A stretch of 64,000 nt of DNA. Origin: an uncultured bacterium (lineage in GTDB: Bacteria; Lernaellota; Lernaellaia; JACKCT01). The notes below the pieces were generated by a model that saw only the letters and a program-made list of their open reading frames with translations, made no database searches and was not told where the DNA came from. Where the stretch lies: positions 51,988 through 115,987 of the forward strand of contig CAZQAE010000001.1 of the NCBI GenBank assembly GCA_964591275.1. The letters are read 5' to 3'. Made by a program: the position numbers and the translations under genes. Shown here in pieces: positions 11,492-61,913 of this stretch (position 1 is its first letter; every line of letters starts with the position of its first letter).

Positions 11492-11511
11492 CCCTTAGGA
11501 TAAAAACCTAA

Positions 11512-11544
11512 AATCCCTCCGGCTTTTTTTAAGCCGGGGGGATT
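11512..11544. terminator. Bidirectional rho-independent terminator between convergent genes
   Basis: aatccctccggc-ttttttta-gccggggggatt gives a 12-bp stem (1 mismatch) with T-rich flanks on both strands. It lies between the stops at 11491 (+) and 11551 (-). Confidence 0.6.
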
Positions 11545-11550
11545 ATATTG

Positions 11551-13293: not shown

Positions 13294-13329
13294 ATCGCTT
13301 TCTCGTCGTTTTGCCGGATGTGGGCGAAA

Positions 13330-14802: not shown

Positions 14803-14873
14803 GAAATTTGAAACATGACAGCCTTGTTTTACTAATTCCTTGTCGTAATGCAAAGAGATGAATTTGAATTGTC

Positions 14874-38884: not shown

Positions 38885-41173
38885 TCAGCGTGGCAGTAAA
38901 TTGTTTTCCTGAAAACACTGGACCATCAGGTCAGACAGAATATCCGTGCCCGTTGGATTCAAGTGCACGGTGTCCCATGGGAAAACGAGGCTGGTCATGT
39001 CTTCGCGGGCTTTGGACATCCAGGAATGCGTATCGCAGAAAACCGCATGGACCTGATCGGCCGTTTCTTCCATGCTGGCATAGAGAAAATTGGCGGGATT
39101 ATTCTTCGTCGGCAAGTGGCTTGTGTCTTGTTTCCACATAAATTCGGAAGTGAAAACGATCTTCGCTTTTTGCCGTCTGGCGAGATCGGCCATGTCTTTT
39201 AGGTTCAGCACAAAGTCCTCAACGGGATTTATTCGCTTCAGAATCGAAGTTTTGGCCGTGCGTCGGCCCCTTTTTTCCACAATGGCTCTCGTCAGACCGT
39301 TGTAGAGACGGAATCGACGCAGACTGTCCTGGATTTTAATAATCCAACTTCTTTTTTCCATCAGGCCTTTGCCTGCCATGTAGTCTTCAATATCATCCCA
39401 GTCGCCGCCGGTTTTGGCCGCCCACAATTCACGGAGTGTGAAGGGTCCCCATTCATCCCAGGAAGTCGAATCGTTGAAGCCGCAATACAGAACGAGCAAA
39501 TCATATTGCAGGTCTTTTAAATAACTTTGGTGTAAAACGAGCAGTTGAAAAAGGTTGTATCCACATACGCCGGAATTTACGACCTGATATTTGACCCCGT
39601 CATCGCGGTCATTGAGTTTCTTTTCAAGTTTATATCCCCATGTGTCCTGGATATCGTCCAGCCTGTCTCCCCATACGTTGCTTCCCCCCATGATGACAAT
39701 ACGGAAGACGCCATCGGGTTTTTTGCCAGGAACGTTTCCGGAGCGGAAGTTGATTTTTTCAACGGTATAATCACTGCGCCTGTCATAATCCGCATCGGGC
39801 GCCATAAGATTCTTCGGCGCCCAAAAAAGAAGGTTGTCCGACCGAAAATCTTCGCCGATGTTATCCGGAAGCCAGTGGACGGCATAAGTCGAGTGCCGGG
39901 CGGTAAATTCCGCCCCGACGAAAAGAAACGCTACGGCGGCGATCATGAAAAGAGAAGATGCGGCAAAGCTTTTGCCGTACAAGCGCATTAGTGAGAATTT
40001 GGCCGCTGCCATCGCCGTCAACGACAGCGCGGTCAGGGCTATCAAATCCGCCGCGTCCGTCGACCGCAGTTGGTCAAGCGCCGGCAGGGCGGCGAAGATG
40101 AGGGGAACAGAGGCAATAAGCGCCCCCGCCTGCCAGGGCAGCTTGGCTGAAAAGCGCCAGAAAATCATTTCGCAGAAGATGAGAATGGAAAGGCCGCTAA
40201 AAATAAAGAGCCTTGCGCCGGTCGTGGGATCCAGCAGTTTTGCCGGGTTCGGGGGTCTCAGAAGGCCGGCAAGGGATAATGAGGCTGGAATGACAAGAAG
40301 GAGCCAAAACCAGGCGCGGGGTCGGTTCCAGTATACGCGTGGCAAAATTGCCAGACGCCAAGCCGTTGTGGCGGTGGCGAGGAATAGCATCGCATCCAGG
40401 CGCATCGGAGCATCAATGAATCCCATTGTGACAGCGAAAGGGAGATATCCGGCGGCAAAGGTTGCAATAGCATCCCCTCGTCGTGCGATCCCGGAAATTG
40501 ATAAAATGAGATGATCCATCCAGCGCGCAAGAAACAATAATGGGCATAAGCATGCGAAAAGCTTGAGGAGGAAAAGATAATTTTCAAGGTTTTCCCCGAA
40601 TCGCTCGGTGAAGAGTATCGCGCCGGTTTCGGCATCTTTCACAGTGAAGTTGTCGATGTCGAACACTGATTCCTTCGACAAGATCTCGATGGTTTCCAGA
40701 TGGTCCGTTGGACGCGCAACGGTTTTTATCCAATCTTTTTCCATGTGACGAAGGGAAAGAGATGTTTCGTCAATTTTGATTTCGATTGTCTGGCGCTTTC
40801 CCGGAATGCGGTCGATATCGTTGCCAACGATAAATGCTTCGGCGCTGTTGCCCTCGTGGTCCCATGCTCGAATGAAGATCATTCCGATCCATATTGGATT
40901 TAGATCAAACTCAACGCTAAGGTTCGTATTCGTCATTGACGCCGGAACGGAATATTTTAATGCGGATTTCCAAACCATTTTGACAACGCCGCCCCTGGGC
41001 CATTTTTCATCGCCCTCGGCGGATAGGGAAAACGGAGCTTCGATAGGCGAACGACCGTAGTACAGCGTGCAGGAAATTGTCAGAATCGCGGCAAGAAAGA
41101 TAAGGCTTGGTTTGAAACTATGCCATCGAACGGGGCCTTGGTGCGTGATATCGACAGGATTTCGATAGTCCAT
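38885..41173 (-). CDS. Polytopic membrane protein fused to C-terminal SGNH/GDSL hydrolase domain (putative exopolysaccharide acyl-modifying enzyme)
   Basis: N-terminal TM plus extracytoplasmic domain, then a multi-TM region. SGNH blocks IVIMGGSNVWG (block I), YCGFND (block III) and DTVHLNPTG (block V). ATG 41173 preferred over TTG 41191. Confidence 0.65.
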   Translation of the reverse strand: MDYRNPVDITHQGPVRWHSFKPSLIFLAAILTISCTLYYGRSPIEAPFSLSAEGDEKWPRGGVVKMVWKSALKYSVPASMTNTNLSVEFDLNPIWIGMIFIRAWDHEGNSAEAFIVGNDIDRIPGKRQTIEIKIDETSLSLRHMEKDWIKTVARPTDHLETIEILSKESVFDIDNFTVKDAETGAILFTERFGENLENYLFLLKLFACLCPLLFLARWMDHLILSISGIARRGDAIATFAAGYLPFAVTMGFIDAPMRLDAMLFLATATTAWRLAILPRVYWNRPRAWFWLLLVIPASLSLAGLLRPPNPAKLLDPTTGARLFIFSGLSILIFCEMIFWRFSAKLPWQAGALIASVPLIFAALPALDQLRSTDAADLIALTALSLTAMAAAKFSLMRLYGKSFAASSLFMIAAVAFLFVGAEFTARHSTYAVHWLPDNIGEDFRSDNLLFWAPKNLMAPDADYDRRSDYTVEKINFRSGNVPGKKPDGVFRIVIMGGSNVWGDRLDDIQDTWGYKLEKKLNDRDDGVKYQVVNSGVCGYNLFQLLVLHQSYLKDLQYDLLVLYCGFNDSTSWDEWGPFTLRELWAAKTGGDWDDIEDYMAGKGLMEKRSWIIKIQDSLRRFRLYNGLTRAIVEKRGRRTAKTSILKRINPVEDFVLNLKDMADLARRQKAKIVFTSEFMWKQDTSHLPTKNNPANFLYASMEETADQVHAVFCDTHSWMSKAREDMTSLVFPWDTVHLNPTGTDILSDLMVQCFQENNLLPR

Positions 41174-41247
41174 GGCTATACTATGCCACAATTCCGGTCA
41201 AAGAGAATTGAAATTTGCAGGTCAAAGGGTCTGGGGTGAAAAAATTG

Positions 41248-41344: not shown

Positions 41345-44300
41345 TTAGTATTGCACCGTGTCTGGGTGCGTGCCGAATATGAAGCGGTAGTTGAGGAATA
41401 GGGTGTAGGAATAATAATTATAATCCTGATCCAAGCCAAATCCTATATCCGCAGCGGCGCTGAGGATGTGTTTCGGCTGAATTCGCCAGTTCATGCCGCC
41501 GAATAATCCGAATCCATACCCGCCGTTTCCTTCCTCGATGTTGTAGGAGGGACTGACGCCGATGGAATAGTCGAAGGGCTGCGTTGGACGGTGATACCAG
41601 GTGATGGGCAGAGCATGCCCGTAGAAGGTTTCAGGTGCCCAGTAAACAGCAGCCTGATATGGAGTTTGGTCTTCGTGATCGATATACGAGAAGACGTAGG
41701 ATGCAAGGATCGAAGAGTTCTCCACTTGGAAGGGCTGCCTGAATGTGTAGCCGAGACCGGCTGTGACGAGATTGGAGACCTGCGAATCGAGGTTGTAAGT
41801 ATCGCCGATGGACTGGCTCTTGATGCGATAGGCATATTCGCCGAAAAGCTGGAAGTGATCCCAGGAAGTTCCGATCAGTTTCTTGAGGGTGAGGACGCCG
41901 CCGTAGGCGTCGGTATAAAGCATCTCACGCATCGACGACACAGTTTCGCGAATGTCCGTTCGTTTCAAATACAGATCAATGAGCGCGACATCCAGGAGGT
42001 TGAAGCCAAGGTGGCCTTCCCAGTTTGCGGTATTGTGGCTCACAGCGTCGCCGTAGAAGTTGATCGTGTATAAGCCCTTGAGAGAGACCTCGTTGAAAAG
42101 GCCGAGTTTCAGTCCGACGGTGGGTGAAATGTTGGTGACCGTTTCCTCGTTTTCCTGAAAAAATCGTCCGGCCTGCAATTTTGCGATGGCCTCCCAGCCT
42201 TCCCAGAAACGGTATGTGCCTACCACGCCGCCCTGGATGTAGGAAACGAGATCGTCGAATCGAATGCCTTCAGAGTAACCTGCGAAAACGTCCAAGGTCG
42301 GGGCGCTGTCGTAGACCACCTGTGTTAATCCCTGTTCGGCTTCCTGATTGCCCGGCTCCAACTGTCGTACAACTTCATATTGGTGAATGGCCGAGCGCCA
42401 CATGCCTGACATACGATAAATGTTGGCTAAGGCCAACCGGTAGTATACGTTGTCGGGATTGGCCTCCACGAGCTTTTCAAATTCGTATCGCGCTCGTTTG
42501 TAGCTTTCCTTGTTGTACAATTCGGCCGCCAATTGGGCGCTGTACTTTTCTTCAGCCTCGCTCGCGAAGAGCGAGGCATCTCCCGGTGGAATGCCGCCGG
42601 GCCCTCCTTGGGCGCCGGACGAAGAGAAGAAAGATTCGAGAAGAGCCTGGTCTGTGTAGTCGATGGAATACAGTTGCAGGTATTGTATGGCCTCCATATT
42701 CGTAGGATTGATAATCAGTATTCTCTTGTATTGATCGATAGCGTCGTCCACGCGTCCCGATTGCTTATAGGAGCGGGCCAGTCCCGTGCGTCCCTCTACG
42801 TTCCAGGGATCGCTGGCCGCCACGTACTCCAGGTTGACGGTGGAATCCTGATATTGGCCGATGGCTAGAAAGCACAAGCCCACTTCGAGTCTGACCTCTG
42901 TGTTTTCAGGTTGCTGCTCGGCAAGTTCCGCGTAAATGGCGATGGCGGAATCGTAGTCTTCTCCGTAGTTATAAGCCCTTGCGAGTTCCAGCTTCAATTC
43001 AAAATCATTCGGATCCTGGTTGACGAGATATTGCAGGTGTTCGGCTGCCTTGGCGTATTGCGTTTTGTAGGCATACAACTTCGCCAAAAGGCGGCGCGTA
43101 TCGGAATTTTCCGGTTCGGCGATGACGACCTTTTCGGCGTGGACAATAGCGTCATCGTAGCGGTCGGGATTCATGGAAAGAAGCGTTGCCAGGTAGAAAT
43201 GAGCGTCCACATTGTCCGGTTCGTTATCCAAAACGGCTTTGAATTCATTTTCCGCCAGGCCATTTTTCTTCATACCCATGTACACTCTACCAAGCGCCAG
43301 ATGGGCGTCTATGTTATTCGGCTCAAGCGTTATTGCTTCCTGATAGGCCACCTCGGCTTCGGCGAATTCACCCCTTTCAAGGAGAAGGCGGCCGAGTTCC
43401 AGGCGGGCTTCGGTGTTTTTGGGATAGCGGTCATACAAGTTGCGATACAGGTCGATTGCGCGCCCGTAATATTGACGATCCCATGAATAAAGGTTGGCGA
43501 GAGCGAAGCTGGCGTCGTAGTTGTTCGGGTCCTGTTTCAGGACAACTTCATATTGCCGCATCGCGGACTCAATGTGGTTGTTGTAGGTGAATAACTTAGC
43601 CAATGACATACGCGCTGGGATGTGCGAGGGATCTTGCGCGATGATGACCTGATATTGCTTGATGGCGGCGTCGTAGCGTTTGGCAAAGCCCAGTGTTTGA
43701 GCATACTCAGCACGCAGATCCAGATTTCCCGGTCGTCGCGACAGTAGCCACTGGTACTGTTGGATCGAGGCGTTGAAGCGCTGCGTCCACGAATAAAGCC
43801 TTGCCAGGCGCAATCGCATGTCGAAATTTTCCGGGTCCTGTTTCAGGATTTCAATACACTCGTAAATAGCCGCGTTGTATGTTCCCTTGTCATAGGCGTA
43901 AATTTCGGCAAGGGCCAGTCGCGAGGCTGTATGATTGGGGTCGATGTCGAGGATGCGACGGTATTCCCGAACGGCTTCTTTGTACCTGTTGTGCGCCTCG
44001 TATTCCCGGGCGAGCAAAAAGCGGATGTCGGTGTTGCCGGGATCATCTTCCAGAATCCCGCGCATCTGCACGATGTTCGCCGGATATTCGCCGTAAACGC
44101 CGTAGATGTCTCCCCAATTGTTTGAAAAAAGCCACCAGGCGCTTTTATAATCGCCGGTGACGGCGACATACCGGCGGGAAAGCAGATAATGATTGTAGGA
44201 AAGCTCGGTGAAAGAGTTGGAGTTGTTGGGGTCAATTTCAAGCGCCTTGCGGTGCATGACGATCGCTTTTTCATATTCGCCACTTTTTCGATCAATGACG

Positions 44301-46651
44301 CCCAAACCGTAATAAGCCCCTACCGATTTGTCATCGGCAGCCAGAACTTCCCGGTATTCCAGCTTCGCCTTGTCGTATTGATCCGTGATGCGATAGACAT
44401 CGCCCAGACCGAGATGCGCGTTGATGTGCCGTGAGTCTATCTCCATCACTTGCTTATAAGTCAGTTCAGCCAGATCGTACTCGCCTTCCATCTGGTAGGC
44501 CTGGGCGAGGGCAATGCGAATTTCGGTTCTGGATGGATCCTGATTGAGTTGATCCACCAATTCGCCGATGACCTGTTCGCCGTGCCCCGCGTATATTCTG
44601 GTTCTGACCATCTCAATGTAGAGGTCTTCATCATGGGGGCTTTTTGCGATCAGGGTCTGGTATTCGACAACGGATTCGTCATATCGCTCGGTCCATGAAT
44701 AAAGTCTGGCCAGGAGCAGGCGGGTTGTGTCGTCTTCGGGGTCCTGCGTCAGAATATATCGGCATTCCTGAATGCCCTTGTCATAGTAAGCGCTGTCCTG
44801 GGCGTAAACGTGGGCCAGTTTGCGGTGAAGATCCATGTCGGAAAATCTTAGCACGAGGGCCTTTTCCAGCGTGTCGATGGCTTTGATCACGTCCTGCTGA
44901 TAAGCGTAGGCGTCGCCCAGGGCGCCGATGACTTCCATGTTTTGCGGTGCAATAGCCGCAGCTCGCCGGACGGCGTCAATGCTCTTTTCGTGGTCGCCCA
45001 TTTTGCCGTACACAACGGATAGACCCAGATAACCCGAAATATCGTTCGAATCGGCTTTGATGGCTTCATTATAGTGTACAACGGCGTTTTCGTAATCTCG
45101 GTGTTCGGTATAGATTTCGGCTAGTTTGATGTGCGGTTTGGATTCGCCCGGAAACTCCTTGATCGATTTTTCTAGGGTCCCCACGGCTTTGTTGTAGCTC
45201 ATGGTGGCTTCGATGCCGGCGAAAATCCAGCGGACTCGGTCTATGACGCCAAGCCATTGCTTCTCGATTTCGACTGACAGTTCTTCTTTGCGCTTTTTCG
45301 CCGCTACCGATTTTAAATTGTAGGCTTCGGCCAGTCCTATCTGGGCTTCCATGCGAACCGCGGGGTCGTCGGTGTCCATCGCGTCTTTGAACATGTCGAT
45401 GGACTCTTCGAACTGCCCGCTTTTCGCATGAAGATTGGCCTTGAGCAGCTTGGCTTCAGCGTCCTGCGGCAAAGCGGAAATGGCTAGGTCTACCTCGTGG
45501 ATGGCGCGTTCGTAGTCACCTGCGTCGCGCAAGGTCCTGACGTATTCCAGGCGAATACTCTGGTTTTCTGGGTCGGCTTCCAGCATGGCCTGGTATTGGG
45601 CCTCGGCTTCGGCGGTGTTGTTGGAAAGGGCATATATGCGGCTCAGCAGTTTCCTGGCCTCGAAATTGTTGGGATCGTCTTCCAGGATTTCATTGCAGGC
45701 CTTGACCGCCTTCGGATAAGTGGCATCTTCCCAGGAATACAGGTTGGCGAGGATAATCTTTGTGTCCATATTTGCCGGTTCCAGTCCAGCGGCTTTTTCG
45801 TAGGACTCAATGGCCTCGCGCGTTCGCTTCTGCGCGGCGTAGGCATTGCCGATACCGCGCAAAGCGACGATGTTGTCCGGGTCTTTTTTCAGGACCATGC
45901 GGTACGAGAGCACGGCGTCGGCGTAACGCTGGGAATAGGTGTAGGCTTCGCCCAGGCCCAAAAGAGCCCTGTCGGTGTACTTGGGTTTGAGGGAGAGGAG
46001 GTTGAACTGGTTGGTCGCCTCGTCATATTGCTTGGCGTACATGAGGACGTACGCATATTCCAGGCGCAGATCATCATTGTTCGGGTCGCCTTTCAGAATC
46101 TGCTTGTAGACCTCGGCGGCTTCGGTATGTTGTCCCATCCATGAGCGCACTCGCGCGGAAATGAGCAGTGTTTTTTTGTCCTCCGGATCCTTTTCGAGTA
46201 TTTTATCGCAGGCTTCTATTGATTTATCGTAGGTGGCTTTATCCCAGGAGTAGACTTCGGCAAGTTCCCGAAGCGCGGTGAGATTTTCCGGTTCGATCTT
46301 GAGCAATTCGTTGTATTGTTCTACGGCGTTGGGCGAATCGTTTTCCCACTGATAAACCTGTGCCAAATGCAGGCGCACAACACCGTCATTCGGATCCTCT
46401 TGAATCACCTCCCTGTATACGGAAATCGCCATGGCGTTTTTTCCGAGCGCATAATAGCAGTCGCCCAAGCGCTTTTTGGCGTCAAGGTTGGCGGGATCAT
46501 CTTCCAGGGCCTTCATAAAGAAACCGATGGCCTGGCCGAAGTTGTTCTTTCCATAGTGGCTGACGCCATCCTCATAATTGCCCGCCCATACCGGCGGCGT
46601 AAGGAAGGTCAACCATCCAAGGAAGGTGAGGAATACCGCGATGCGTTTCAT
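41345..46651 (-). CDS. Giant TPR-repeat protein with C-terminal outer-membrane beta-barrel (PgaA/BcsC-like exopolysaccharide export protein)
   Basis: ATG 46651 (TTG 46657 alternative). Signal peptide MKRIAVFLTFLGWLTFLTPPVWA. About 1400 aa of TPR repeats. C-terminal 350 aa of alternating amphipathic strands ending in the aromatic-rich ...YRFIFGTHPDTVQY. Confidence 0.8.
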   Translation of the reverse strand: MKRIAVFLTFLGWLTFLTPPVWAGNYEDGVSHYGKNNFGQAIGFFMKALEDDPANLDAKKRLGDCYYALGKNAMAISVYREVIQEDPNDGVVRLHLAQVYQWENDSPNAVEQYNELLKIEPENLTALRELAEVYSWDKATYDKSIEACDKILEKDPEDKKTLLISARVRSWMGQHTEAAEVYKQILKGDPNNDDLRLEYAYVLMYAKQYDEATNQFNLLSLKPKYTDRALLGLGEAYTYSQRYADAVLSYRMVLKKDPDNIVALRGIGNAYAAQKRTREAIESYEKAAGLEPANMDTKIILANLYSWEDATYPKAVKACNEILEDDPNNFEARKLLSRIYALSNNTAEAEAQYQAMLEADPENQSIRLEYVRTLRDAGDYERAIHEVDLAISALPQDAEAKLLKANLHAKSGQFEESIDMFKDAMDTDDPAVRMEAQIGLAEAYNLKSVAAKKRKEELSVEIEKQWLGVIDRVRWIFAGIEATMSYNKAVGTLEKSIKEFPGESKPHIKLAEIYTEHRDYENAVVHYNEAIKADSNDISGYLGLSVVYGKMGDHEKSIDAVRRAAAIAPQNMEVIGALGDAYAYQQDVIKAIDTLEKALVLRFSDMDLHRKLAHVYAQDSAYYDKGIQECRYILTQDPEDDTTRLLLARLYSWTERYDESVVEYQTLIAKSPHDEDLYIEMVRTRIYAGHGEQVIGELVDQLNQDPSRTEIRIALAQAYQMEGEYDLAELTYKQVMEIDSRHINAHLGLGDVYRITDQYDKAKLEYREVLAADDKSVGAYYGLGVIDRKSGEYEKAIVMHRKALEIDPNNSNSFTELSYNHYLLSRRYVAVTGDYKSAWWLFSNNWGDIYGVYGEYPANIVQMRGILEDDPGNTDIRFLLAREYEAHNRYKEAVREYRRILDIDPNHTASRLALAEIYAYDKGTYNAAIYECIEILKQDPENFDMRLRLARLYSWTQRFNASIQQYQWLLSRRPGNLDLRAEYAQTLGFAKRYDAAIKQYQVIIAQDPSHIPARMSLAKLFTYNNHIESAMRQYEVVLKQDPNNYDASFALANLYSWDRQYYGRAIDLYRNLYDRYPKNTEARLELGRLLLERGEFAEAEVAYQEAITLEPNNIDAHLALGRVYMGMKKNGLAENEFKAVLDNEPDNVDAHFYLATLLSMNPDRYDDAIVHAEKVVIAEPENSDTRRLLAKLYAYKTQYAKAAEHLQYLVNQDPNDFELKLELARAYNYGEDYDSAIAIYAELAEQQPENTEVRLEVGLCFLAIGQYQDSTVNLEYVAASDPWNVEGRTGLARSYKQSGRVDDAIDQYKRILIINPTNMEAIQYLQLYSIDYTDQALLESFFSSSGAQGGPGGIPPGDASLFASEAEEKYSAQLAAELYNKESYKRARYEFEKLVEANPDNVYYRLALANIYRMSGMWRSAIHQYEVVRQLEPGNQEAEQGLTQVVYDSAPTLDVFAGYSEGIRFDDLVSYIQGGVVGTYRFWEGWEAIAKLQAGRFFQENEETVTNISPTVGLKLGLFNEVSLKGLYTINFYGDAVSHNTANWEGHLGFNLLDVALIDLYLKRTDIRETVSSMREMLYTDAYGGVLTLKKLIGTSWDHFQLFGEYAYRIKSQSIGDTYNLDSQVSNLVTAGLGYTFRQPFQVENSSILASYVFSYIDHEDQTPYQAAVYWAPETFYGHALPITWYHRPTQPFDYSIGVSPSYNIEEGNGGYGFGLFGGMNWRIQPKHILSAAADIGFGLDQDYNYYSYTLFLNYRFIFGTHPDTVQY

Positions 46652-46697
46652 TCCCAATACCCCTTATCGGGTTGTCGATGACGGTGATCGGCGTTCA

Positions 46698-47852
46698 TTA
46701 GTTCGCCGGGCCGCCATGCTCGTTATAATATCTGAGCGCCAACAAGGCTTCCAGATTGTCGAACGAAAATACTTCGTCGTCGCAAAATGAGCCATACATT
46801 GGGCTGATCCTGTTTTTGCTTTGAAAATACAATAGTCTTTCGATGACTTCAGCGGCGAATTTGACGTCGCCGCAACGAAGCGCGTATCGGGCTAAAAGCG
46901 CATATACGCTTGACGACTCAAAAAATTTCGTCGCTTCGCCGCTCAGGGAGTTGTACTCGGCGTATATGGCGCCGTCTTCCTTCATTTTTTCCTTGAAAAA
47001 GTTCAGGAGTTCGTGGCGGTCGTCCGGCGACGCCGTTAAAAATAATCCGCAATATAATTGGTTGATCGTATTTTGCTGGTAACCGAAATACGCTCCCCGC
47101 GAAAAGTCATATCCCTCATAAAACAACCCTGCGCCGAGTTGCCCGTTTTTAAGCATTTCATAATTACGTTTCAATATCTTTTTCCAAGTTGGGTCGAGCC
47201 GTGAAAGTTTCAGCATGGTTGGCAAATCCAAATAAGACAACTGGACCTGTGGCGCAACCGTATGCTCTCCCCAATCGCGCCAGTTGACGAAATCCCTGAG
47301 TGCATCGTCCACGACTTCATAGTTTTGGATGCTTTGCGCTACCTGCATGGCATAATCCATATAGGGTTTCGATTTCCATTGCTCATAAGCGCCCAGGCAC
47401 GCGCCGACGATGCGCAAATCATCCACGCTGGCCGTAGAGTTTGCCGTCAGTTCGCCGTCATGCGTTATTTTCCAAAAGAACAAGCCAATTTGTCCGACGA
47501 GCTTCTTTTTCGCAAATTGAAGTTGCCCGTCAAACAGCTCTTTGTCGTCTGCCGCCACAGCGTAATTCATCATGATTCCCGTGCTTTCCGACAGGAGTCC
47601 TGAACGTCTGAAATCGTCGAGGCGGAACTTTTTGAAAAAAAGATAATTTTTGACTTCCGAGGCTGTATATATTCCTCCTTCCGCAGTCATCATGCGCTTT
47701 TCAATGAAGCGCCTGCACGTCAATTCGGCCTTGACGGGATCAAGCGGTTTCCAGCACCATGCAGCCGACGCCAGGGCTGGAATGAGCGCTGCGGCGAAAA
47801 TGATGCCATAACGGATAAATCGCGAATTCACGGCGCCGCGCTGTGCGGACAT
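46698..47852 (-). CDS. Secreted glycoside-hydrolase-like protein ((alpha/alpha)6-barrel, GH8/BcsZ-like)
   Basis: AAGGAGG RBS. Signal peptide ending ALASAAW. Position in operon matches the periplasmic hydrolase slot of synthase-dependent EPS systems. Family assignment rests on weak motif similarity only. Confidence 0.45.
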   Translation of the reverse strand: MSAQRGAVNSRFIRYGIIFAAALIPALASAAWCWKPLDPVKAELTCRRFIEKRMMTAEGGIYTASEVKNYLFFKKFRLDDFRRSGLLSESTGIMMNYAVAADDKELFDGQLQFAKKKLVGQIGLFFWKITHDGELTANSTASVDDLRIVGACLGAYEQWKSKPYMDYAMQVAQSIQNYEVVDDALRDFVNWRDWGEHTVAPQVQLSYLDLPTMLKLSRLDPTWKKILKRNYEMLKNGQLGAGLFYEGYDFSRGAYFGYQQNTINQLYCGLFLTASPDDRHELLNFFKEKMKEDGAIYAEYNSLSGEATKFFESSSVYALLARYALRCGDVKFAAEVIERLLYFQSKNRISPMYGSFCDDEVFSFDNLEALLALRYYNEHGGPAN

Positions 47853-47855
47853 TCC

Positions 47856-49130
47856 TTATTCCGCCTCCTTTTCCTGAATTCGGTATCGTACGGTTTTAAC
47901 CCACTCCGTCTTCTTTTTCCTCGTGACAATGTCGAGATAAACAGAACGAGACACGACGATAATCCATAGCTGGCAGTACGTAACGTACATAATGAAGGAT
48001 AAGACAACGTTTTTAAACGATTCCTCCTCCTCCAAACTGACGGCGATAAGGGTCTGTAGGAAAAAGAGCATCATCGCCAGGAACCAGATAAAGGCGAAAG
48101 GTCCGATGAGTCCGAGTTTGACGACTCCCAACAGACCCATGATGGCGATGACGTCCGAGAGAAGCAGGGCGAAAAAGAACATGTAATACAGGCTGAACAT
48201 ATAAAAAAGATCGACCATGATCCGGCGGTTTTTCATTTGGAATGCGACGCGAAGGAACTTTCGCACGATGTAGCTGATCCCTTGCGCCCAGCGGGTTCGT
48301 TGCCGGATGAAGGTTTTCATATCCTCCGGCTCTTGTTCCCATGTCACGGCGTAGGGAATGAATTTGATTCGATAACCCATCTCATAGAGGCGAATCGAAA
48401 GTTCGGCGTCCTCGGCGACGGCGTCCTCATCGAAGCGCCCCGCCTTGTCGAGAACCTTGCGCCAGATGACGTAATTTGTGCCCGGCAGCGTGGCGAGACC
48501 GAAAAGCTTGTAACGACCGCCTTGTATGATCCACTGGAAGGTAATGAATTCGATGTTGATGAAAGGAGGCAGATAGCCGCGATCCCTGTTGATGGTGCGT
48601 ACTTTGCCGAGAACAGCTCCCAGCTTTGGATTTTCCAAAAGGTTGGCGACCAGATTGAACAGTGAGTCCGGCTCCGGATGGTTGTCGGCGTCAAAGATCG
48701 CGATGACGTCGCCCATCGAATGCTCCAGGCCGATATTCAAGGCTCGACTCTTGCCTCTGCCGCCTTCTCCCTCCGGGATGTTGACGAGCTTGACTTCGCG
48801 GTGGCGACGAGCCATGCGCGTCGTGATTTCCTCTGTCTCATCTTCACTGCCGTCATTGATCACCAGGATCTCCATGCGCTCTTTCGGATAGAGCATGGCT
48901 AGCATGGACTGGATCGTTCTTTCAATCACAATGGCTTCGTTGTGGCAGGGTATGAGTATGGAAACGAAAGGGAAGGGGAATGGTTCGTTGGCGATTCGCT
49001 GTCGTTCTTTCTCGGCTGAAACACCGTTCAGGAAAGCAAAGAAAGTCAGAAGTACATTGAACAAAAGAAACAACCAGATGCCTATAGCAGCTGATAAAAA
49101 CGCCAAGTCGATGTAAACGCTGGTGTACAT
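47856..49130 (-). CDS. Processive family-2 glycosyltransferase (PgaC/IcaA/NodC-like polysaccharide synthase)
   Basis: N-terminal TM, then GT2 domain with SILIPCHNE, DGSED and IFDADN, plus the processive QRTRWAQG (QxxRW) motif. C-terminal TM bundle. 424 aa. Confidence 0.85.
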   Translation of the reverse strand: MYTSVYIDLAFLSAAIGIWLFLLFNVLLTFFAFLNGVSAEKERQRIANEPFPFPFVSILIPCHNEAIVIERTIQSMLAMLYPKERMEILVINDGSEDETEEITTRMARRHREVKLVNIPEGEGGRGKSRALNIGLEHSMGDVIAIFDADNHPEPDSLFNLVANLLENPKLGAVLGKVRTINRDRGYLPPFINIEFITFQWIIQGGRYKLFGLATLPGTNYVIWRKVLDKAGRFDEDAVAEDAELSIRLYEMGYRIKFIPYAVTWEQEPEDMKTFIRQRTRWAQGISYIVRKFLRVAFQMKNRRIMVDLFYMFSLYYMFFFALLLSDVIAIMGLLGVVKLGLIGPFAFIWFLAMMLFFLQTLIAVSLEEEESFKNVVLSFIMYVTYCQLWIIVVSRSVYLDIVTRKKKTEWVKTVRYRIQEKEAE

Positions 49131-49131: not shown

Positions 49132-51186
49132 TTAGGATTCTTCCCCTTTTCGTGACGCCATCCACTTCCTGGCTCCGGAAAAGGTCTTGCGGGTAATCAG
49201 GAACACCCACAGAATCAGGAAGGTGATCAAGGTCAAAATTCCCAGGATGAGGATAGCCAGAGCCACCGGATTCGTCACCCCGGAGACGGTCGGTCTGAAC
49301 AAGGTGATGTTCGATAAACCGATTTTTGGGCGTTGATACGAACCCTGCAAGACCTGCAATTCTCCCGGACGCAATGAGACATACTTATGGATATCGCCCG
49401 TGACAGTTCCGAAGGAATAGGTTTCGCCAAGAAGCTCTCCCTGGCGACTAATAGTCAGTTCGTGTTTATATTGCGAACCCAGAGTGAGAATGACCTCGCC
49501 GATTCCGCTGACGACGACCCGATCCCTTGTGGTAACTTTATTATTGAAATCCGCGAGGGAGGCGAATTCCCATTCCTGCGCGATCAGACCGTCCACGACC
49601 TCTTCCAGCAATTTCAAGTCCAGATAGGTGTGGAAGAAAAAACTGGCCCAGCCGTCGCGAACAACTTTTGTGGCCTCGGCGTCAATGAGGATCGCCTCAG
49701 GCGTGCGTCCGACTTTGGGATTCACATAACCCAGGCTTTCCGGGATGATAATCTGTTTGTGCTTGTCGGACTTTATCAGATAGGGAAAGAACTGGTCGGA
49801 GCCGAACAATTCCACGGGCATGCGCCGTTCCACCACCGTTGTGAAGTAATTGGCAAAGACGCTGTAATCCACTTGCCCCGCCGCGTAATGGGGCGTCGTC
49901 CATGCCAGGGGAAAAATGTCGTTCAGGAAACATTCATTGAGTGCGCGCTCGATTCTTACCGAGGCGAAGGTTGCGTCCCCGGCGGAAATCGGCCCGCCGA
50001 TCTCATGACTCCAAAACTCGTAATCGACCGCCGTTTCTCCCGAAATCTGGTGCGTATAACCGTGAAGGATGACCGAACCGCCGCGGCTGATAAGATATTT
50101 GATGGTCTCCTGGAACTCGGGATCGTCCGAAAGGTAGATCGTTTCGTCCGTTGCAGGATTTTTGTAAACGGGGATTAGCGTAAAGGCGAAGGGTATGCCT
50201 CTTTCATAAAGCAGGTCAGCGGCTAGCTTGAGTGGTCCCGGCTGCCGCTTTGCGTGTATGTCCTCCAGGCGCACGAAGGCGCGATGGCGTTCTTTGTGGT
50301 TTTGGCCGAGGAAATCATGCAGAATATCCGCAAAAGCCAGATAGGCGCCGCCCTCAATGGAGTAAGCCAGCGCGTCCGAAGCCACGTACCAGAAATTGTC
50401 CGAATGCACGATGTAGGGCAATTCAATCGCGGGCGGCTCGGTGGGCGGCGGCGCGAGAAACTCTGCCAAATTTGAGGAATCGAAAAGATCATATGCCCGT
50501 ATGGGTTTGACGGCCTGGCCGATGGGCATTACCGGCAGCATGGTTTCCAGGGGATTGTTCATGGGAGATTCCGCCGTACCGGGCGGGATGTCTTTTCCGT
50601 ATTCTGCGGGTTTCAGGGGATCGGCGACGAAACGGGCTGTCGCCATAACCTTGGCCAATGCCGGTCTGGTCACGTTGATAGCGAAGGTGCGCAGATCGAT
50701 TTTCGCCAGATGCCGTCCCTTGTATTCGACATCATTCGTAAGATGATTGTCCGAATCATCCACCAGACTGATGCCCCACTTATCCATGCTGTGGCGATTT
50801 TGCATGCGTTCCAGGTTGGCGCCGATCCACATGACTTGCGCCCTGGTGTCGAAAATGTCGTCGATCAAATAACTCGGCAGAGGCTGTCCGGTTTTTGTGC
50901 CCACATAAAAAACAAAAGACGCATCTTTAGCCATGCCTTTTTTGTAGCTTGCCGTTGAAATTTTCTCCAACGACACACTAAAATGGCAAAGCAATTGTGC
51001 AAGAGATTCGGCGCTGACGATTTCGCGGTTGAGACTTTCAGCGTTAGTGGGCTCATCATAGATAATAAGAACGGGTTTTCCGCCGGGGCCGAGAACTTCC
51101 TGTTCAGGCTTAAGTTGGATAAAAATGACGTACAGCACTCCCAAGATCAGCGCCAAAGCAATGAAGGGAATTAGGACTGTGCGCAT
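49132..51186 (-). CDS. DUF2334-type polysaccharide deacetylase-like protein, membrane-anchored at both termini
   Basis: N-terminal and C-terminal TM helices. Central region FAFTLIPVYKNP...VILHGYTHQ is typical of DUF2334 (CE4-like fold). Confidence 0.65.
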   Translation of the reverse strand: MRTVLIPFIALALILGVLYVIFIQLKPEQEVLGPGGKPVLIIYDEPTNAESLNREIVSAESLAQLLCHFSVSLEKISTASYKKGMAKDASFVFYVGTKTGQPLPSYLIDDIFDTRAQVMWIGANLERMQNRHSMDKWGISLVDDSDNHLTNDVEYKGRHLAKIDLRTFAINVTRPALAKVMATARFVADPLKPAEYGKDIPPGTAESPMNNPLETMLPVMPIGQAVKPIRAYDLFDSSNLAEFLAPPPTEPPAIELPYIVHSDNFWYVASDALAYSIEGGAYLAFADILHDFLGQNHKERHRAFVRLEDIHAKRQPGPLKLAADLLYERGIPFAFTLIPVYKNPATDETIYLSDDPEFQETIKYLISRGGSVILHGYTHQISGETAVDYEFWSHEIGGPISAGDATFASVRIERALNECFLNDIFPLAWTTPHYAAGQVDYSVFANYFTTVVERRMPVELFGSDQFFPYLIKSDKHKQIIIPESLGYVNPKVGRTPEAILIDAEATKVVRDGWASFFFHTYLDLKLLEEVVDGLIAQEWEFASLADFNNKVTTRDRVVVSGIGEVILTLGSQYKHELTISRQGELLGETYSFGTVTGDIHKYVSLRPGELQVLQGSYQRPKIGLSNITLFRPTVSGVTNPVALAILILGILTLITFLILWVFLITRKTFSGARKWMASRKGEES

Positions 51187-51219: not shown

Positions 51220-52074
51220 TTAAAATGCCTGATACCGTGAGTCGATAACGTTGACGAGTTCCTCCAGGTTGCCGGCGTCTTTTGGAAAATTGGAAGCTGC
51301 AATAGTCAGATCAGGAATAATCTCATCCCATTTTGATTCGATGGCCTCAATCAATTCTTCTCTTCGTTCGGCGACGCGCATCAGCACCACGTTTGTGCCG
51401 GCGGCGTTGGTTTCAGGTAGGATCAGGCCGATTTCCGTGTCCGAGTACTTGCCGATATAATCCGTGTCGCGCAGCATCTGGCGCATGAAGCGCCCCATTT
51501 CACGGAAGAGGGCGATTTCCTCTTCGGCATCGTATCGTTTTTCAAAATCTTCGAGATTGTTGATGCGCATGAAGATGAGAGACAAAGGGATATTGTAGCG
51601 TTTGACGCGTTTTATCTCGCCATTGAGCATCCATCGGAAACTTTTGAAATTGTACAGCCCCGATTCCTGGTCGGGAATGAAAGTTTCGACTTTTGTGACT
51701 TCCCGGAAAGAATCCGAGTGCCGGAAATCCAGCACTTCGGAAATGATGCCCAGAACGAATCCCACCGAAACAAGTACGCCGATGTTTGCAATACTTTCAC
51801 GGATGAAGCCGGATTGCGCCGTTCCCTGAACGATCTTGAACAGGACAAGAGAGCCGTAAACCGCCGTGGAAAGAACGGATAACAGCGCACCGTGCTTTAG
51901 CCCTTTTGTGACCGCAAGAAAGGCAATCGGAAAAGACAGGACAAAAGTCAGCGCCTTATAAGATCGAATTTGAAAGAAGTAGGCGAAGAAAATCCCGAAT
52001 AGCAAGCCCAGTATCGTCAGCGTGAACAGATCTCGATATTCAAAAGATTTTTTCGGGCCGCCTTGTCCGTTCAT
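51220..52074 (-). CDS. Membrane protein with degenerate GGDEF domain retaining RxxD I-site (PelD-like c-di-GMP receptor candidate)
   Basis: Three to four N-terminal TMs. GGDEF fold signature GLYNFKSF...LSLIFMRINNLEDFEKRYD...MLRDTDYIGKYSDTEIGLILPET. The active-site GG(D/E)EF is replaced by YSDTE. RDTD sits exactly 5 residues upstream, as the I-site does in active cyclases. Confidence 0.7.
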   Translation of the reverse strand: MNGQGGPKKSFEYRDLFTLTILGLLFGIFFAYFFQIRSYKALTFVLSFPIAFLAVTKGLKHGALLSVLSTAVYGSLVLFKIVQGTAQSGFIRESIANIGVLVSVGFVLGIISEVLDFRHSDSFREVTKVETFIPDQESGLYNFKSFRWMLNGEIKRVKRYNIPLSLIFMRINNLEDFEKRYDAEEEIALFREMGRFMRQMLRDTDYIGKYSDTEIGLILPETNAAGTNVVLMRVAERREELIEAIESKWDEIIPDLTIAASNFPKDAGNLEELVNVIDSRYQAF

Positions 52075-52440: not shown

Positions 52441-54516
52441 TTACATTTTTCTAAAATCAGCAATATTAGAAAACATGGAAGCTATATTGAGCAACAGAGA
52501 CAGGCGGTTGGAGCGGACCTTTTCTTCTTTCGCCATGACCAGAACACTGTCGAAAAAGTCGTCAACCACCGGCCTGATCTTTGCGATAAGCTCCAGGGCC
52601 TCCAAGTGCTTTCTTTTATTGACCAACTCACCTGCTTTCGTCCGGATTCCCAGATAGGCTTCCCAAAGATTCTTTTCCCTATCGTCTTCGAACAAAATGG
52701 GATCAACCGTTGATTCCACATGGCCGCCGATGATGTTTGCCACGCGCTTGAAGGCCGCGGCGAAGGCTTCGTAGTCTTTGGATCCGGAAAATTGCGCTAC
52801 GGCTTGCGTGCGGTCGACGACCTCGACCATGTCGCTAAAACGCACGGCAACGACGCCATCGACTATCTCCGAGGGAGCGCCTTCGGTCTTGAGCATATTC
52901 GACAAGCGCAATCGGAAGAACTCCGTTGCCAGTCGGAGAAGCTCGCCGGATTCCATGCGAATTTTATCCTTTGCGGCTTTGGCGGCGATGTCGATCAACT
53001 CGTCGATAGGGATGCGCCACTGTCTTTGACGCAGTATCTGGATGACGCCCAGCGCCTGGCGGCGCAATGCATAGGGGTCTCCGGCGCCGGTGGGGGCCAG
53101 TCCGACTCCCGCGCCCGCTACGATGGAATCCATTTTGTCGGCGATGGAGCATATGGCGCCAAGCTCGGTTTCCGGAAGAGCATCCCCGGCGAAACGGGGT
53201 AAATAATGCTCCCGAATCGCATCAGCCACCGTTTTAGGCTCGCCTTGCTTCAGAGCATATTCATACCCCATGATTCCCTGAAGCTCCGGGAACTCACCCA
53301 CCATATTGGTGAGCAGATCGGCCTTGAACAGTTCCAATGCCCTCGCGGTCATATCCTTTAATTCCGGCGCGAGCTTTCCGGCTAACCACTGGCCGATGAT
53401 TTGGACACGGTCGATTTTGTCCTTATAACTCCCCAGTTTCCTGTGGAATATGACGCCGTCGAGATTTTCGGCAAACTTTTCGAGCGGTGTGCGAAGGTCC
53501 TCTGCCCAGAAGAATTTCGCATCCGCCAAGCGTGCGTTGAGGACTCTTTCGTATCCTTTCGTGACCAGGTCCTTGTCGGAAACCTCAGTTCCGCTGACCG
53601 CGACAAACTTCGGCATAAGGTCCGGCGAGTCGGGACGCAGAAAGTTGAAATACCTCTGATGGCCGGCCATCGTCGTCACCAATACGGGCTTGGGCAGTTC
53701 CATATATTGGTCCGGGATCGAACCCACATGCACGACCGGCCATTCCGTCAGGCCCGTAACTTCATCAATCAACTTATCGGCGCTTTTGGCGTCGAATTCG
53801 CCGCCGATATCCCTGGCGACTTTCTCAAGGCCGTCAGCGATGAGTTTTCGTCTTTCATGATAATCCACGATAACCCGGGCGGCTTTGAGTTTGGCGCGGT
53901 AGTCCTCGTAGCCTTCAACGGAAATGGCTTGCGGACTATGAAATCGATGGCCGTAGGTGTTTGCTGTCGCTTTAACGTCGGCGAAGGACAATTCGATGGT
54001 TTCGCCGCCCAATAGTGCGGTTATCCACTGAATGGGACGCACAAATCGCTGCGGTTCAACTGACCACCTCATGGATTTGGGCCAGGGGATATCCTTTATC
54101 AGCGTTGCCAGCATCGGCCCGACAATATCCCGGGCCGGCTGGCCCACGATTTCTTTTCTGACTCCAGCTCGCGGACCCTTCGGTGTTTCTATCTTGATGA
54201 GATCCTCAGCATTTGCTCCCTGGCTTTTTGCAAATCCCGCCGCCGCTTTTGTCAAATTGCCGTCCTTATCGAAGGCGGCCTGCCAGGCGGGCCCGAGGCG
54301 CTCGGAGATTTCATCCTTTTGCACAGGCGATATATTATGTGCGTATCCGACAAGTCGCCGGGGGGTTGCCGTGACGGCGATTTCTTCAAAGTCCAGGCGA
54401 TGATGGCGCAATCCTTCGGAAAGAAGTCGCTCAAGATCGGCCATGGCGGTTTTTAAAAAACGTGCCGGGACTTCCTCAACTCCGATTTCAAAAAATAAAT
54501 CGTGCGCCATTTTCAT
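52441..54516 (-). CDS. glyS: Glycine--tRNA ligase beta subunit
   Basis: [22 protein letters not shown]-terminus. Full-length beta-subunit, about 691 aa. ATGA overlap with the glyQ stop. The longer track ORF to 54732 is an upstream in-frame extension overlapping glyQ. Confidence 0.9.
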
Positions 54517-60587: not shown

Positions 60588-60631
60588 GCTGTTGCGAAAA
60601 GCTTCGACAATCGCCAAATGGAGGTTATGAA

Positions 60632-61909: not shown

Positions 61910-61913
61910 TCGC

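What the first reader, a model, noticed from the sequence alone, without database searches (positions are those of the whole stretch)
41345..46651. Exceptionally long (about 1770 aa) TPR + beta-barrel exporter, roughly twice the size of PgaA/BcsC
An uninterrupted run of about 1400 aa of TPR repeats precedes a C-terminal region with alternating-hydrophobic strands and a terminal aromatic motif typical of outer-membrane barrels.

The extreme TPR length implies a very long periplasmic scaffold. It could span a wide periplasm or dock several partner enzymes (deacetylase, hydrolase, SGNH).
Basis: partly seen in the sequence, partly recalled or inferred. Interest (0 to 1): 0.5.

Follow-up and report, generated by a model that had tools for sequence, protein, structure and literature searches.

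The report
Giant TPR-barrel polysaccharide exporter
This is a real 1768-residue outer-membrane protein with about 39 helical TPR repeats tethered to a 16-stranded pore like those that export cellulose, Pel and PNAG; it sits in a biofilm-polysaccharide operon of an uncultured bacterium and has about twice the known repeat number, so it is an unusual variant of a known machine, not a new kind.

Summary
The ORF is real: ATG at 46651, stop at 41345-41347, minus strand, 1768 aa, with a cleavable-looking Sec signal. It carries about 39 TPR-like repeats, a Gly/Pro-rich linker, two more TPRs, and a 310-residue C-terminal domain that matches no curated family.

It is not a fusion artefact. Collinear intact orthologues of 1753-1796 aa occur in at least five other lineages. 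No whole repeat is gained or lost among the four aligned orthologues, which go down to 34% identity.

The gene lies in a conserved operon: a 4-TM degenerate GGDEF protein that keeps its RxxD I-site, a DUF2334 protein, a processive GT2 synthase, a GH8 hydrolase, the giant, and an SGNH protein. These are the four defining components of a synthase-dependent exopolysaccharide system.

Why the array is twice as long as the 19 TPRs of BcsC and PelB is untested. The barrel family is very rare: 8 clusters among 1.84 billion representatives.

Verdict: new variant of a known kind, moderate interest.

The parts
41345..46651 (-). Complete gene for the 1768-aa TPR + beta-barrel protein (stop codon 41345-41347)
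   Evidence: ORF list and translation. Identical to P0121. Collinear orthologues of 1753-1796 aa.
46583..46651 (-). Signal peptide, residues 1-23 (MKRIAVFLTFLGWLTFLTPPVWA|G); no lipobox
   Evidence: Read directly from the sequence. Equivalent AWA|G and AWG|E sites in orthologues. No predictor was run.
42647..46582 (-). Main TPR array, residues 24-1335, about 37 repeats, with paralogous multi-repeat modules near residues 130, 303, 613 and 915
   Evidence: Pfam TPR hits. Iterated repeat HMM. Self-comparison reaching 33/68 identity between modules. Per-repeat orthologue identity of 62/49/36% against 19% between paralogous repeats.
44102..44221 (-). Conserved aromatic-rich non-canonical stretch inside the array, residues 811-850 (NSFTELSYNHYLLSRRYVAVTGDYKSAWWLFSNNWGDIY); the best-conserved block of the protein
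   Evidence: 68% mean identity to three orthologues over residues 817-850, against 48% for the whole array. Residues 811-845 fall between repeat-HMM hits.
42557..42646 (-). Gly/Pro-rich, probably flexible linker, residues 1336-1365 (...SSSGAQGGPGGIPPGDAS...)
   Evidence: Composition read from the sequence. Gly/Pro-rich segments sit at the same place in orthologues. Indels cluster here.
42305..42556 (-). Barrel-proximal helical module, residues 1366-1449; its last two TPRs (four modelled helices, residues 1388-1448) lead into the barrel
   Evidence: AF2 model helices H2-11, H16-29, H32-45 and H50-62, at pLDDT about 90. Repeat HMM hits at 1376-1401 and 1408-1435.
41375..42304 (-). 16-stranded outer-membrane beta-barrel, residues 1450-1759, ending in the conserved [YW]-[RT]-x-x-F motif (YRFIF)
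41348..41374 (-). Variable 9-residue C-terminal tail after the last strand (GTHPDTVQY)
   Evidence: Family alignment shows tails of 8-23 residues with no conserved final residue.
51220..52074 (-). First operon gene: 284-aa protein with 4 predicted TM helices and a degenerate GGDEF domain; candidate c-di-GMP receptor
   Evidence: Pfam and NCBIfam GGDEF hits. Hydropathy. Aligned to diguanylate cyclase 3ign, RDTD pairs with the RxxD I-site and SDTEI replaces GGEEF.
49132..51186 (-). 684-aa DUF2334 protein with hydrophobic segments at both ends; candidate periplasmic polysaccharide deacetylase
   Evidence: PF10096, E 9e-47. Hydropathy. Always adjacent to the GT2 gene in related loci. The activity is inferred only.
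47856..49130 (-). 424-aa membrane GT2 processive synthase (FDAD, AED and QRTRW motifs)
   Evidence: Pfam GT2 families. Best NCBIfam hit is PgaC_IcaA, 169 bits, below the 422 cutoff. Among the best PDB sequence matches is BcsA. Motifs read from the sequence.
46698..47852 (-). 384-aa GH8-like periplasmic glycoside hydrolase
   Evidence: PF01270. Weak BcsZ hit. PDB 3ren at E 2e-44 and 6r2m at E 4e-12.
38885..41191 (-). Last operon gene: up to 768-aa protein with a multi-TM region (about residues 200-430) and a C-terminal SGNH/GDSL domain; the true start may be the ATG at 41173
   Evidence: PF13472. Hydropathy. A 753-aa orthologue sits downstream of the giant in L001 and L003.

Best explanation
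The gene encodes the outer-membrane export component of a synthase-dependent exopolysaccharide system.

Shown:
- The protein has a signal peptide, about 39 TPRs and a C-terminal domain predicted with good confidence to be a 16-stranded barrel.
- That barrel's closest structural neighbours are exclusively BcsC, PelB and PgaA.
- The gene is co-oriented and tightly packed with a GT2 synthase, a degenerate GGDEF protein that retains its I-site, and DUF2334, GH8 and SGNH proteins.
- This gene order recurs in distant relatives.

Inferred mechanism:
1. c-di-GMP binds the RxxD site of the 4-TM GGDEF-like protein and activates the GT2 synthase. This would parallel the c-di-GMP effector PssE of Listeria (PMC10620520) and, from my own knowledge, PelD.
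2. The synthase polymerises and translocates an N-acetylhexosamine-type chain. A WecB-like UDP-GlcNAc 2-epimerase gene is adjacent in four related lineages, which points to ManNAc or GlcNAc.
3. In the periplasm the chain is trimmed by the GH8 enzyme and modified by the DUF2334 and SGNH enzymes.
4. The TPR array guides the chain and scaffolds those enzymes.
5. The chain leaves the cell through the barrel.

New relative to known exporters:
- There are about 39 repeats, against 19 in BcsC and PelB and 8 in PgaA.
- The number is fixed across orthologues.
- About 37 of them are separated from the pore module (2 TPRs plus barrel) by a Gly/Pro-rich tether.

By analogy with PelB (19 TPRs modelled at over 20 nm), a fully extended array would exceed 35-40 nm, more than a usual periplasm. 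It therefore probably bends at its three non-TPR breaks into a compact multi-site scaffold rather than a straight bridge.
For: Structure:
- AF2 model, pLDDT 83.1, pTM 0.79, 4 helices plus 16 strands.
- Foldseek: the top five hits are the same proteins at TM 0.61-0.67 on the query; generic porins score about 0.40.

Sequence:
- The barrel-only profile hits only BcsC among 177,635 PDB sequences at E<=10. The hit aligns the family's invariant YWAP..F..H.LP motif with BcsC GYYSPQEYLSFAIPV.
- Sub-threshold, collinear BCSC_C matches occur in 3 of 4 family members.
- Strand dyad pattern.

Operon:
- Pfam on the neighbours.
- Degenerate A-site with retained I-site.
- GT2 motifs and BcsA/PgaC similarity.
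- The same gene order appears in L001/L003, L005-7 and L014.
- The epimerase gene is adjacent in L004, L005-7, L013 and L014.
- All four defining components of synthase-dependent systems (PMC7112194) are present.

Conservation:
- Four collinear orthologues.
- Fixed repeat number, with orthologous repeats far more alike than paralogous ones.

Reference values: 19, 19 and 8 TPRs, 16-stranded barrels, and a PelB scaffold over 20 nm (PMC9384988 and PMC12141448).
Against: - Nothing here is experimental. The barrel rests on a prediction from only 8 sequences, one of the five models was poor (pLDDT 54), and one extracellular loop is low-confidence.
- No curated BcsC, PgaA or PelB model reaches threshold.
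- In one lineage (L011/L012) the homologue is not next to any synthase gene, and in L011 it lacks the first 700 residues.
- The polymer's identity is a guess. The window itself has no adjacent epimerase.
- Estimated lumen-facing residues are near neutral (9 acidic, 13 basic), unlike the electronegative PelB lumen. That argues against a strongly cationic deacetylated polymer.
Confidence: 0.8

Rival explanations
1. The protein is a general envelope scaffold or tether. The outer-membrane barrel only anchors a large periplasmic TPR platform (for example for envelope assembly or peptidoglycan-associated functions), and the polysaccharide does not pass through it.
For: - The TPR array is better conserved than the barrel, 48% against 36%.
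- Homologues in L011 and L012 stand apart from any synthase genes.
- The AF2 model cannot show whether the pore is open.
Against: - Operon linkage to GT2, GH8 and DUF2334 genes holds in four lineages: the window, L001/L003, L005-7 and L014.
- The barrel's nearest structural neighbours are only polysaccharide exporters, with a Z gap of about 7 to everything else.
- It shares a motif with BcsC.
Confidence: 0.1
2. The long ORF is an assembly or fusion artefact joining a TPR protein gene to a separate porin gene.
For: - In one sister MAG (L002) the orthologue is called as four ORFs.
- A Gly/Pro linker sits between the array and the pore module.
Against: - L002 differs from intact L001 by only three 1-nt gaps at 99.56% identity.
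- Intact collinear ORFs of 1753-1796 aa occur in independent assemblies and lineages.
- There is no stop codon in any of them at the linker.
Confidence: 0.01
3. It is a PrsT-type PEP-CTERM/exosortase-associated TPR lipoprotein, as the NCBIfam equivalog score would suggest.
For: TIGR02917 PrsT scores 443 bits against a 312 cutoff. A Polysacc_deac_1+DUF3473 gene lies 17 kb away.
Against: - The score is summed over 9 repeated TPR stretches. MamA, PilW and LcrH equivalogs also 'pass' for the same reason.
- There is no lipobox.
- A beta-barrel is present.
- No exosortase was detected among the ORFs of at least 200 aa scanned.
Confidence: 0.02

Closest known systems
BcsC (cellulose synthase outer-membrane subunit; PDB 6tzk, 9b8a, 9b8h)
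   Same: - Signal peptide, then a TPR array, then a C-terminal 16-stranded barrel.
- The only solved protein with any sequence signal to the barrel profile, through a shared Y-[WY]-[AS]-P...[AL]-[IL]-P motif.
- A GH8 hydrolase sits in the operon, as BcsZ does.
   Different: - 19 TPRs against about 39.
- BCSC_C and NF008520 scores are far below cutoff (12.8 against 23.5 bits; 145 against 858).
- The synthase here is a 424-aa PgaC-sized GT2 with no detected PilZ domain or BcsB partner.
- A Gly/Pro tether separates the array from the pore module.
PelB (Pel exporter; PDB 9h80)
   Same: - TPR array plus 16-stranded barrel.
- From my own knowledge, the Pel system also uses a TM protein with a degenerate GGDEF domain and an I-site (PelD) as its c-di-GMP receptor.
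   Different: - 1193 aa and 19 TPRs, with an uncleaved N-terminal anchor proposed (PMC12141448). Here the signal peptide looks cleavable.
- No PelC ring lipoprotein and no PelA, PelE, PelF or PelG homologues were detected in the operon.
- The GGDEF-like protein is 284 aa, with only about 35 residues between the TM region and the GGDEF domain. That is too short for the GAF domain that, from my own knowledge, PelD carries.
PgaA (PNAG exporter; PDB 4y25)
   Same: - The partner synthase's best named match is PgaC/IcaA.
- A deacetylase-like partner is present.
   Different: - About 800 residues (model length) and 8 TPRs against 1768 aa and about 39.
- TIGR03939 and PRK10049 scores are below cutoff and come from the TPRs only.
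- The deacetylase-like partner is DUF2334, not PgaB-type. No Polysacc_deac_1 hit was found on the operon proteins.
- The estimated lumen is not electronegative.
NfrA/NfrB/NfrC (E. coli phage N4 receptor glycan system) and the Listeria Pss system
   Same: - Nfr has an outer-membrane TPR + barrel protein, a c-di-GMP-controlled GT2 and a WecB-type epimerase supplying UDP-ManNAc (PMC8669469).
- Pss has a c-di-GMP effector (PssE) thought to activate a GT2 (PssC), plus a hydrolase, PssZ (PMC10620520). From my own knowledge PssE is a degenerate GGDEF I-site receptor and PssZ is a GH8 enzyme.
- Related loci here carry an adjacent Epimerase_2 gene.
   Different: - NfrB senses c-di-GMP through an MshEN domain, not a GGDEF-like protein.
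- From my own knowledge NfrA is about 990 aa.
- Pss is Gram-positive and has no outer-membrane exporter.
- No direct sequence comparison with NfrA or PssC was possible here.
AlgK/AlgE (alginate)
   Same: A periplasmic alpha-repeat scaffold that docks modifying enzymes, including an SGNH-fold acetyltransferase (AlgX), plus an outer-membrane barrel.
   Different: - The scaffold (9.5 Sel1-like repeats) and the porin are separate proteins.
- From my own knowledge the AlgE barrel has 18 strands.
- AlgE is not among the top structural hits.

Membership tests
Synthase-dependent EPS exporter class (TPR domain coupled to an outer-membrane pore: BcsC/PelB/PgaA type) | N-terminal export signal followed by a periplasmic TPR array | tested here: met
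   Signal-like N-terminus. TPR Pfam hits across residues 30-1440. About 39 repeats.
Synthase-dependent EPS exporter class (TPR domain coupled to an outer-membrane pore: BcsC/PelB/PgaA type) | C-terminal 16-stranded beta-barrel of the BcsC/PelB/PgaA fold | tested here: met
   [not shown]
Synthase-dependent EPS exporter class (TPR domain coupled to an outer-membrane pore: BcsC/PelB/PgaA type) | Encoded in an operon with an inner-membrane GT2 synthase, a c-di-GMP-binding component and periplasmic modifying enzymes (PMC7112194) | tested here: met
   GGDEF*-DUF2334-GT2-GH8-giant-SGNH, all on the minus strand with small gaps. The order recurs in L001/L003, L005-7 and L014. c-di-GMP binding itself is inferred.
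Synthase-dependent EPS exporter class (TPR domain coupled to an outer-membrane pore: BcsC/PelB/PgaA type) | Polymer actually exported through the pore | not testable with these tools
   Requires genetics and biochemistry.
BcsC family (Pfam BCSC_C PF05420; NCBIfam NF008520) | Barrel matches BCSC_C at or above the gathering score; whole protein reaches the NF008520 cutoff | tested here: not met
   BCSC_C scores 12.8 bits (18.1 and 11.6 in two relatives) against 23.5. NF008520 scores 145 against 858, from TPRs only. The weak hits are collinear and specific, so remote homology is plausible but family membership is not.
BcsC family (Pfam BCSC_C PF05420; NCBIfam NF008520) | Partners BcsA (GT2 with PilZ) and BcsB | tested here: not met
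   The GT2 is 424 aa with no PilZ hit, and no BcsB-like protein was detected on the operon genes.
PgaA family (TIGR03939, PRK10049) | Score at or above the curated cutoff, including the porin part | tested here: not met
   156 against 366.65 and 80.8 against 1043. The best stretches lie in the TPR region. There is no barrel hit.
PgaA family (TIGR03939, PRK10049) | Partner genes pgaB (CE4 deacetylase + GH-like domain), pgaC and pgaD | tested here: not met
   The GT2 scores 169 against the 422 cutoff for PgaC_IcaA. The deacetylase-like partner is DUF2334, with no Polysacc_deac_1 hit. No PgaD was detected.
PelB family | Partners PelC (lipoprotein ring), PelA, PelD, PelE, PelF and PelG | tested here: not met
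   None of these was detected by Pfam or NCBIfam on the operon proteins. Only the PelD-like logic (TM + degenerate GGDEF + I-site) is shared. A PelB-specific HMM was not identified in the outputs.
PrsT (XrtA/PEP-CTERM TPR lipoprotein, TIGR02917) | Equivalog score at or above cutoff | tested here: inconclusive
   443 bits against 312, but summed over 9 TPR stretches. MamA, PilW and LcrH equivalogs also exceed their cutoffs, so for a 39-TPR protein the score is uninformative.
PrsT (XrtA/PEP-CTERM TPR lipoprotein, TIGR02917) | Lipoprotein signal, no barrel, exosortase neighbourhood | tested here: not met
   No lipobox Cys. A barrel is present. No exosortase was detected among the ORFs scanned.

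The most novel reading that the evidence does not exclude
The locus defines a sixth, so far undescribed family of synthase-dependent exopolysaccharide systems: a WecB-like epimerase, a 4-TM degenerate GGDEF I-site receptor, DUF2334, GT2, GH8 and a roughly 1770-aa exporter.

The family would be confined to uncultured deep-branching bacteria and would make a ManNAc/GlcNAc-type polymer.

Its exporter would be a BcsC-sized core (equivalent to residues 706-1760, the only part found in the L011 lineage) plus a roughly 700-residue N-terminal TPR extension grown by block duplication.

The whole array has a fixed repeat number and is flexibly tethered to the pore. It would work as a folded periplasmic processing chamber or molecular ruler longer than the periplasm is wide, not as a straight bridge.
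Probability: 0.3. Interest if true: 0.6.

Novelty: new variant of a known kind. Interest (0 to 1): 0.42.

Why it matters
TPR-barrel exporters are the least understood part of synthase-dependent biofilm machines. It is debated whether the TPR array bridges the periplasm, rails the polymer, or scaffolds enzymes.

This natural variant has twice the repeat number, a fixed number of individually conserved repeats, a flexible tether to the pore, and three periplasmic enzymes in the operon. That makes it a useful test case.

- If a full-length model or structure shows a folded array, the docking-platform view is favoured over the spacer view.
- If the array is extended, the organism's envelope must be unusually wide.

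There is also a practical annotation hazard. Very long TPR proteins exceed the whole-protein cutoffs of several unrelated NCBIfam equivalogs (PrsT, MamA, PilW, LcrH), so they risk being misnamed.

The system also links DUF2334 to exopolysaccharide processing. A full-text search of the paper library returned no paper containing both 'DUF2334' and 'exopolysaccharide'.

Tried and rejected
- The word-indexed homologue search with the C-terminal 382 aa returned nothing, not even the protein itself. That index evidently lacks the family. The exhaustive HMMER search was used instead.
- Single-sequence AlphaFold2 of the C-terminal 384 aa failed for the barrel, with pLDDT about 30.
- The profile of TPRs plus barrel (A1) against PDB sequences was swamped by TPR hits. 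It was repeated with a barrel-only profile.
The single-protein scan found one locus only.
- The afdb50 fold library was unavailable.
- Rfam and tRNA scans of the window were empty.
- Promoter and terminator counts were at shuffle level and uninformative.
- PDB sequence searches with the DUF2334 and SGNH proteins gave nothing useful.
- Taxonomy could not be resolved. The nearest named GlyS relatives are 'Deltaproteobacteria bacterium' MAGs at 51-55% identity and Candidatus Lernaella stagnicola at 46%.
- Considered and rejected: fusion artefact, PrsT lipoprotein, and membership of the BcsC, PgaA or PelB families in the strict sense.
Full report
**1. Observation**

The ORF list gives 41345..46657 on the minus strand. 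The probable start is the ATG at 46651, which follows AAGGGG. The product is 1768 aa and is identical to database protein P0121.

The N-terminus, MKRIAVFLTFLGWLTFLTPPVWA|G, reads as a cleavable Sec signal and has no lipobox. Orthologues have AWA|G or AWG|E at the same place.

Pfam TPR models match from about residue 30 to 1440. An iterated repeat HMM finds 35 repeats, and about four more fit the 34-residue gaps, giving about 39.

The run is not strictly uninterrupted. It has:
- a non-canonical helical stretch at about 429-509;
- an aromatic-rich stretch at about 811-850;
- a Gly/Pro-rich linker at about 1336-1365.

After the linker come two TPRs and a 310-residue domain (1450-1759) with no Pfam or NCBIfam match at E<=0.001.

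**2. Is the C-terminal domain a barrel?**

A single-sequence AlphaFold2 run failed. An exhaustive phmmer search of 1.84 billion cluster representatives with the last 328 residues found only 8 proteins.

With an alignment of those (A1), AlphaFold2 gave mean pLDDT 83.1 and pTM 0.79. The model has four helices followed by 16 strands.

| Search | Best matches | Next best |
|---|---|---|
| Foldseek vs PDB | the same proteins, TM 0.61-0.67 on the query | general porins, TM about 0.40 |

Within the predicted strands, 83 of 109 alternate positions are hydrophobic on one face against 28 of 109 on the other. The polar face has 9 acidic and 13 basic residues.

A barrel-only profile (A3) searched against all PDB sequences at E<=10 returns only BcsC (E 0.05 and 0.19). 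The match aligns the family's invariant YWAP..F..H.LP motif with BcsC GYYSPQEYLSFAIPV. Pfam BCSC_C gives collinear sub-threshold hits in three of four family members.

The barrel is therefore of the BcsC/PelB/PgaA fold and probably a remote BcsC_C homologue. It is not a member of any curated family.

The conserved motif is [YW]-[RT]-x-x-F, closing strand 16, and a variable 8-23 residue tail follows it. The final Tyr is not conserved.

**3. Not an artefact**

Loci were recovered through the neighbouring GT2 gene and through the family members.

| Locus | Product | Note |
|---|---|---|
| L001, L003 | 1796 aa | intact |
| L005-7 (P0126) | 1768 aa | three separate metagenomes |
| L004 (P0123) | 1773 aa | intact |
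| L014 | 1753 aa | intact |
| L010 | about 1769 aa | 81% identical |
| L002 | split into four ORFs | differs from L001 by three 1-nt gaps at 99.56% identity |

Four full-length proteins align collinearly at 58, 45 and 34% identity to the window protein.

Orthologous repeats share 62, 49 and 36% identity. Different repeats within the protein share 19%. No whole-repeat indel occurs, and the largest indel in the array is 15 columns.

The array is better conserved than the barrel, 48% against 36%. The best-conserved block is the aromatic stretch at 817-850, at 68%.

Self-comparison shows paralogous multi-repeat modules near residues 130, 303, 613 and 915, reaching 33/68 identity. The array therefore grew by block duplication, and its repeat number has since stayed fixed.

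**4. Context**

On the same strand, with gaps of 1-46 nt between most genes and about 150 nt before the last, lie:
- a 284-aa protein with four hydrophobic helices and a GGDEF domain;
- a 684-aa DUF2334 protein with hydrophobic ends;
- a 424-aa GT2;
- a 384-aa GH8-like protein;
- the giant;
- a multi-TM + SGNH protein of up to 768 aa.

The GT2 carries FDAD, AED and QRTRW motifs. Its best named match is PgaC/IcaA, below cutoff, and BcsA is among its best PDB matches.

Aligned to diguanylate cyclase 3ign, the GGDEF-like protein has SDTEI in place of GGEEF but keeps RDTD at the RxxD I-site. I infer that it is a c-di-GMP receptor rather than a cyclase. The Listeria effector PssE is a functional parallel (PMC10620520), and from my own knowledge so is PelD.

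The same gene order recurs in L001/L003, L005-7 and L014. A WecB-like Epimerase_2 gene is adjacent in L004, L005-7 and L014, and also in the more distant L013, where an Epimerase_2-DUF2334-GT2 triad occurs without a TPR-barrel gene.

This matches the four-component definition of synthase-dependent systems (PMC7112194). It also hints at a ManNAc/GlcNAc-type polymer, as proposed for Nfr (PMC8669469). The window itself has glyQS where the epimerase would be.

**5. Exceptions**

In L011 the homologue matches only residues 706-1760, at 40% identity. The DNA upstream has no TPR coding capacity, and no EPS genes are nearby. The L012 copy is cut by the contig end, and the genes downstream of it are unrelated to polysaccharide synthesis.

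This suggests a BcsC-sized core to which the operon-linked form has added a roughly 700-residue N-terminal extension. It is also the main support for the rival view that the protein is not strictly tied to this synthase.

**6. Mechanism and comparison**

Known exporters have 19 (BcsC, PelB) or 8 (PgaA) TPRs and 16-stranded barrels. PelB's scaffold is modelled at over 20 nm, and PgaA's at 85-110 A (PMC9384988 and PMC12141448).

By proportion, an extended 37-repeat array would exceed 35-40 nm. I therefore favour a bent or compact multi-site scaffold tethered to the pore by the Gly/Pro linker. This is inference, since no full-length model could be made.

Curated family tests fail for BcsC and PgaA, and PelB's partner genes are absent from the operon. 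The PrsT equivalog cutoff is exceeded only through summed TPR hits, as are those of MamA, PilW and LcrH.

**7. Verdict**

The protein is a new variant of a known kind: a very rare barrel family, a doubled and fixed repeat number, and a tethered architecture, in an operon with a distinctive part list from an uncultured, taxonomically unresolved lineage.

Interest is moderate, at about 0.4.

Noticed in passing
window 51220-52074 (-): The first gene of the operon encodes a 4-TM protein whose GGDEF motif is degenerate (SDTEI) while the RxxD I-site (RDTD) is kept. It looks like a c-di-GMP receptor, not a cyclase, and it is shorter (284 aa) than any such receptor I know.
   Followed up: partly
window 41345-46651 (-), NCBIfam scan: The whole-protein scores exceed the curated cutoffs of four unrelated equivalogs: PrsT 443 vs 312, MamA 347 vs 200, PilW 212 vs 154, LcrH/SycD 195 vs 105. 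The cause is that 39 TPRs add up. This is a misannotation hazard for automatic pipelines.
   Followed up: yes
window 38885-41191 (-): The SGNH/GDSL domain is fused to a multi-TM region of about 230 residues that has no Pfam acyltransferase match. Orthologues of 753 aa follow the giant in L001 and L003. L004 instead has three separate GDSL genes near the giant, and L014 has none downstream.
   Followed up: partly
window 49132-51186 (-); L013 5986-9999: The DUF2334 protein has hydrophobic segments at both ends and always sits directly upstream of the GT2 gene. In the more distant locus L013 it is a 1337-aa fusion with a GH42M-like region. The paper library holds no paper linking DUF2334 to exopolysaccharides.
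   Followed up: partly
L011 7901-13198; L012 13-2247: A lineage carries a homologue covering only residues 706-1760 of the giant and standing apart from any synthase genes. In L011 an overlapping upstream ORF (8995-10512) encodes TM-like and coiled-coil-like sequence. A frameshift in this long-read contig could join it to the TPR-barrel ORF.
   Followed up: partly
L002 12485-17872: In one of three near-identical sister MAGs the orthologue is split into four ORFs by three single-base gaps. This is either assembly error or recent decay.
   Followed up: yes
window 17305-21822 (-); L014 1-5447: Two large sulfatase-superfamily proteins (808 and 696 aa, catalytic domain after a 220-250 residue N-terminal region) lie 20 kb from the operon. 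In L014 three such genes sit directly beside the operon's epimerase gene. From my own knowledge this superfamily includes phosphoethanolamine transferases, so a polymer-modifying role is conceivable.
   Followed up: no
window 5373-14853: A cluster of four radical-SAM genes (two with a B12-binding domain, two with SPASM) together with a 780-aa protein of no known family and a PMT_2-type glycosyltransferase.
   Followed up: no
window 23666-24526 (+): A Polysacc_deac_1 + DUF3473 deacetylase. From my own knowledge this architecture is typical of PEP-CTERM/exosortase-associated loci, but no exosortase was detected among the window ORFs scanned.
   Followed up: no
window 58839-62978 (+): A DUF1302 / DUF1329 (LolA-like) / BNR-Ycf48-like gene trio. 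DUF1302 also flanks the syntenic locus L001.
   Followed up: no
window 52441-54732 (-): The listed glyS ORF (763 aa, GTG start) overlaps glyQ. Homologues are 686-691 aa, so the true start is about 75 codons downstream.
   Followed up: partly
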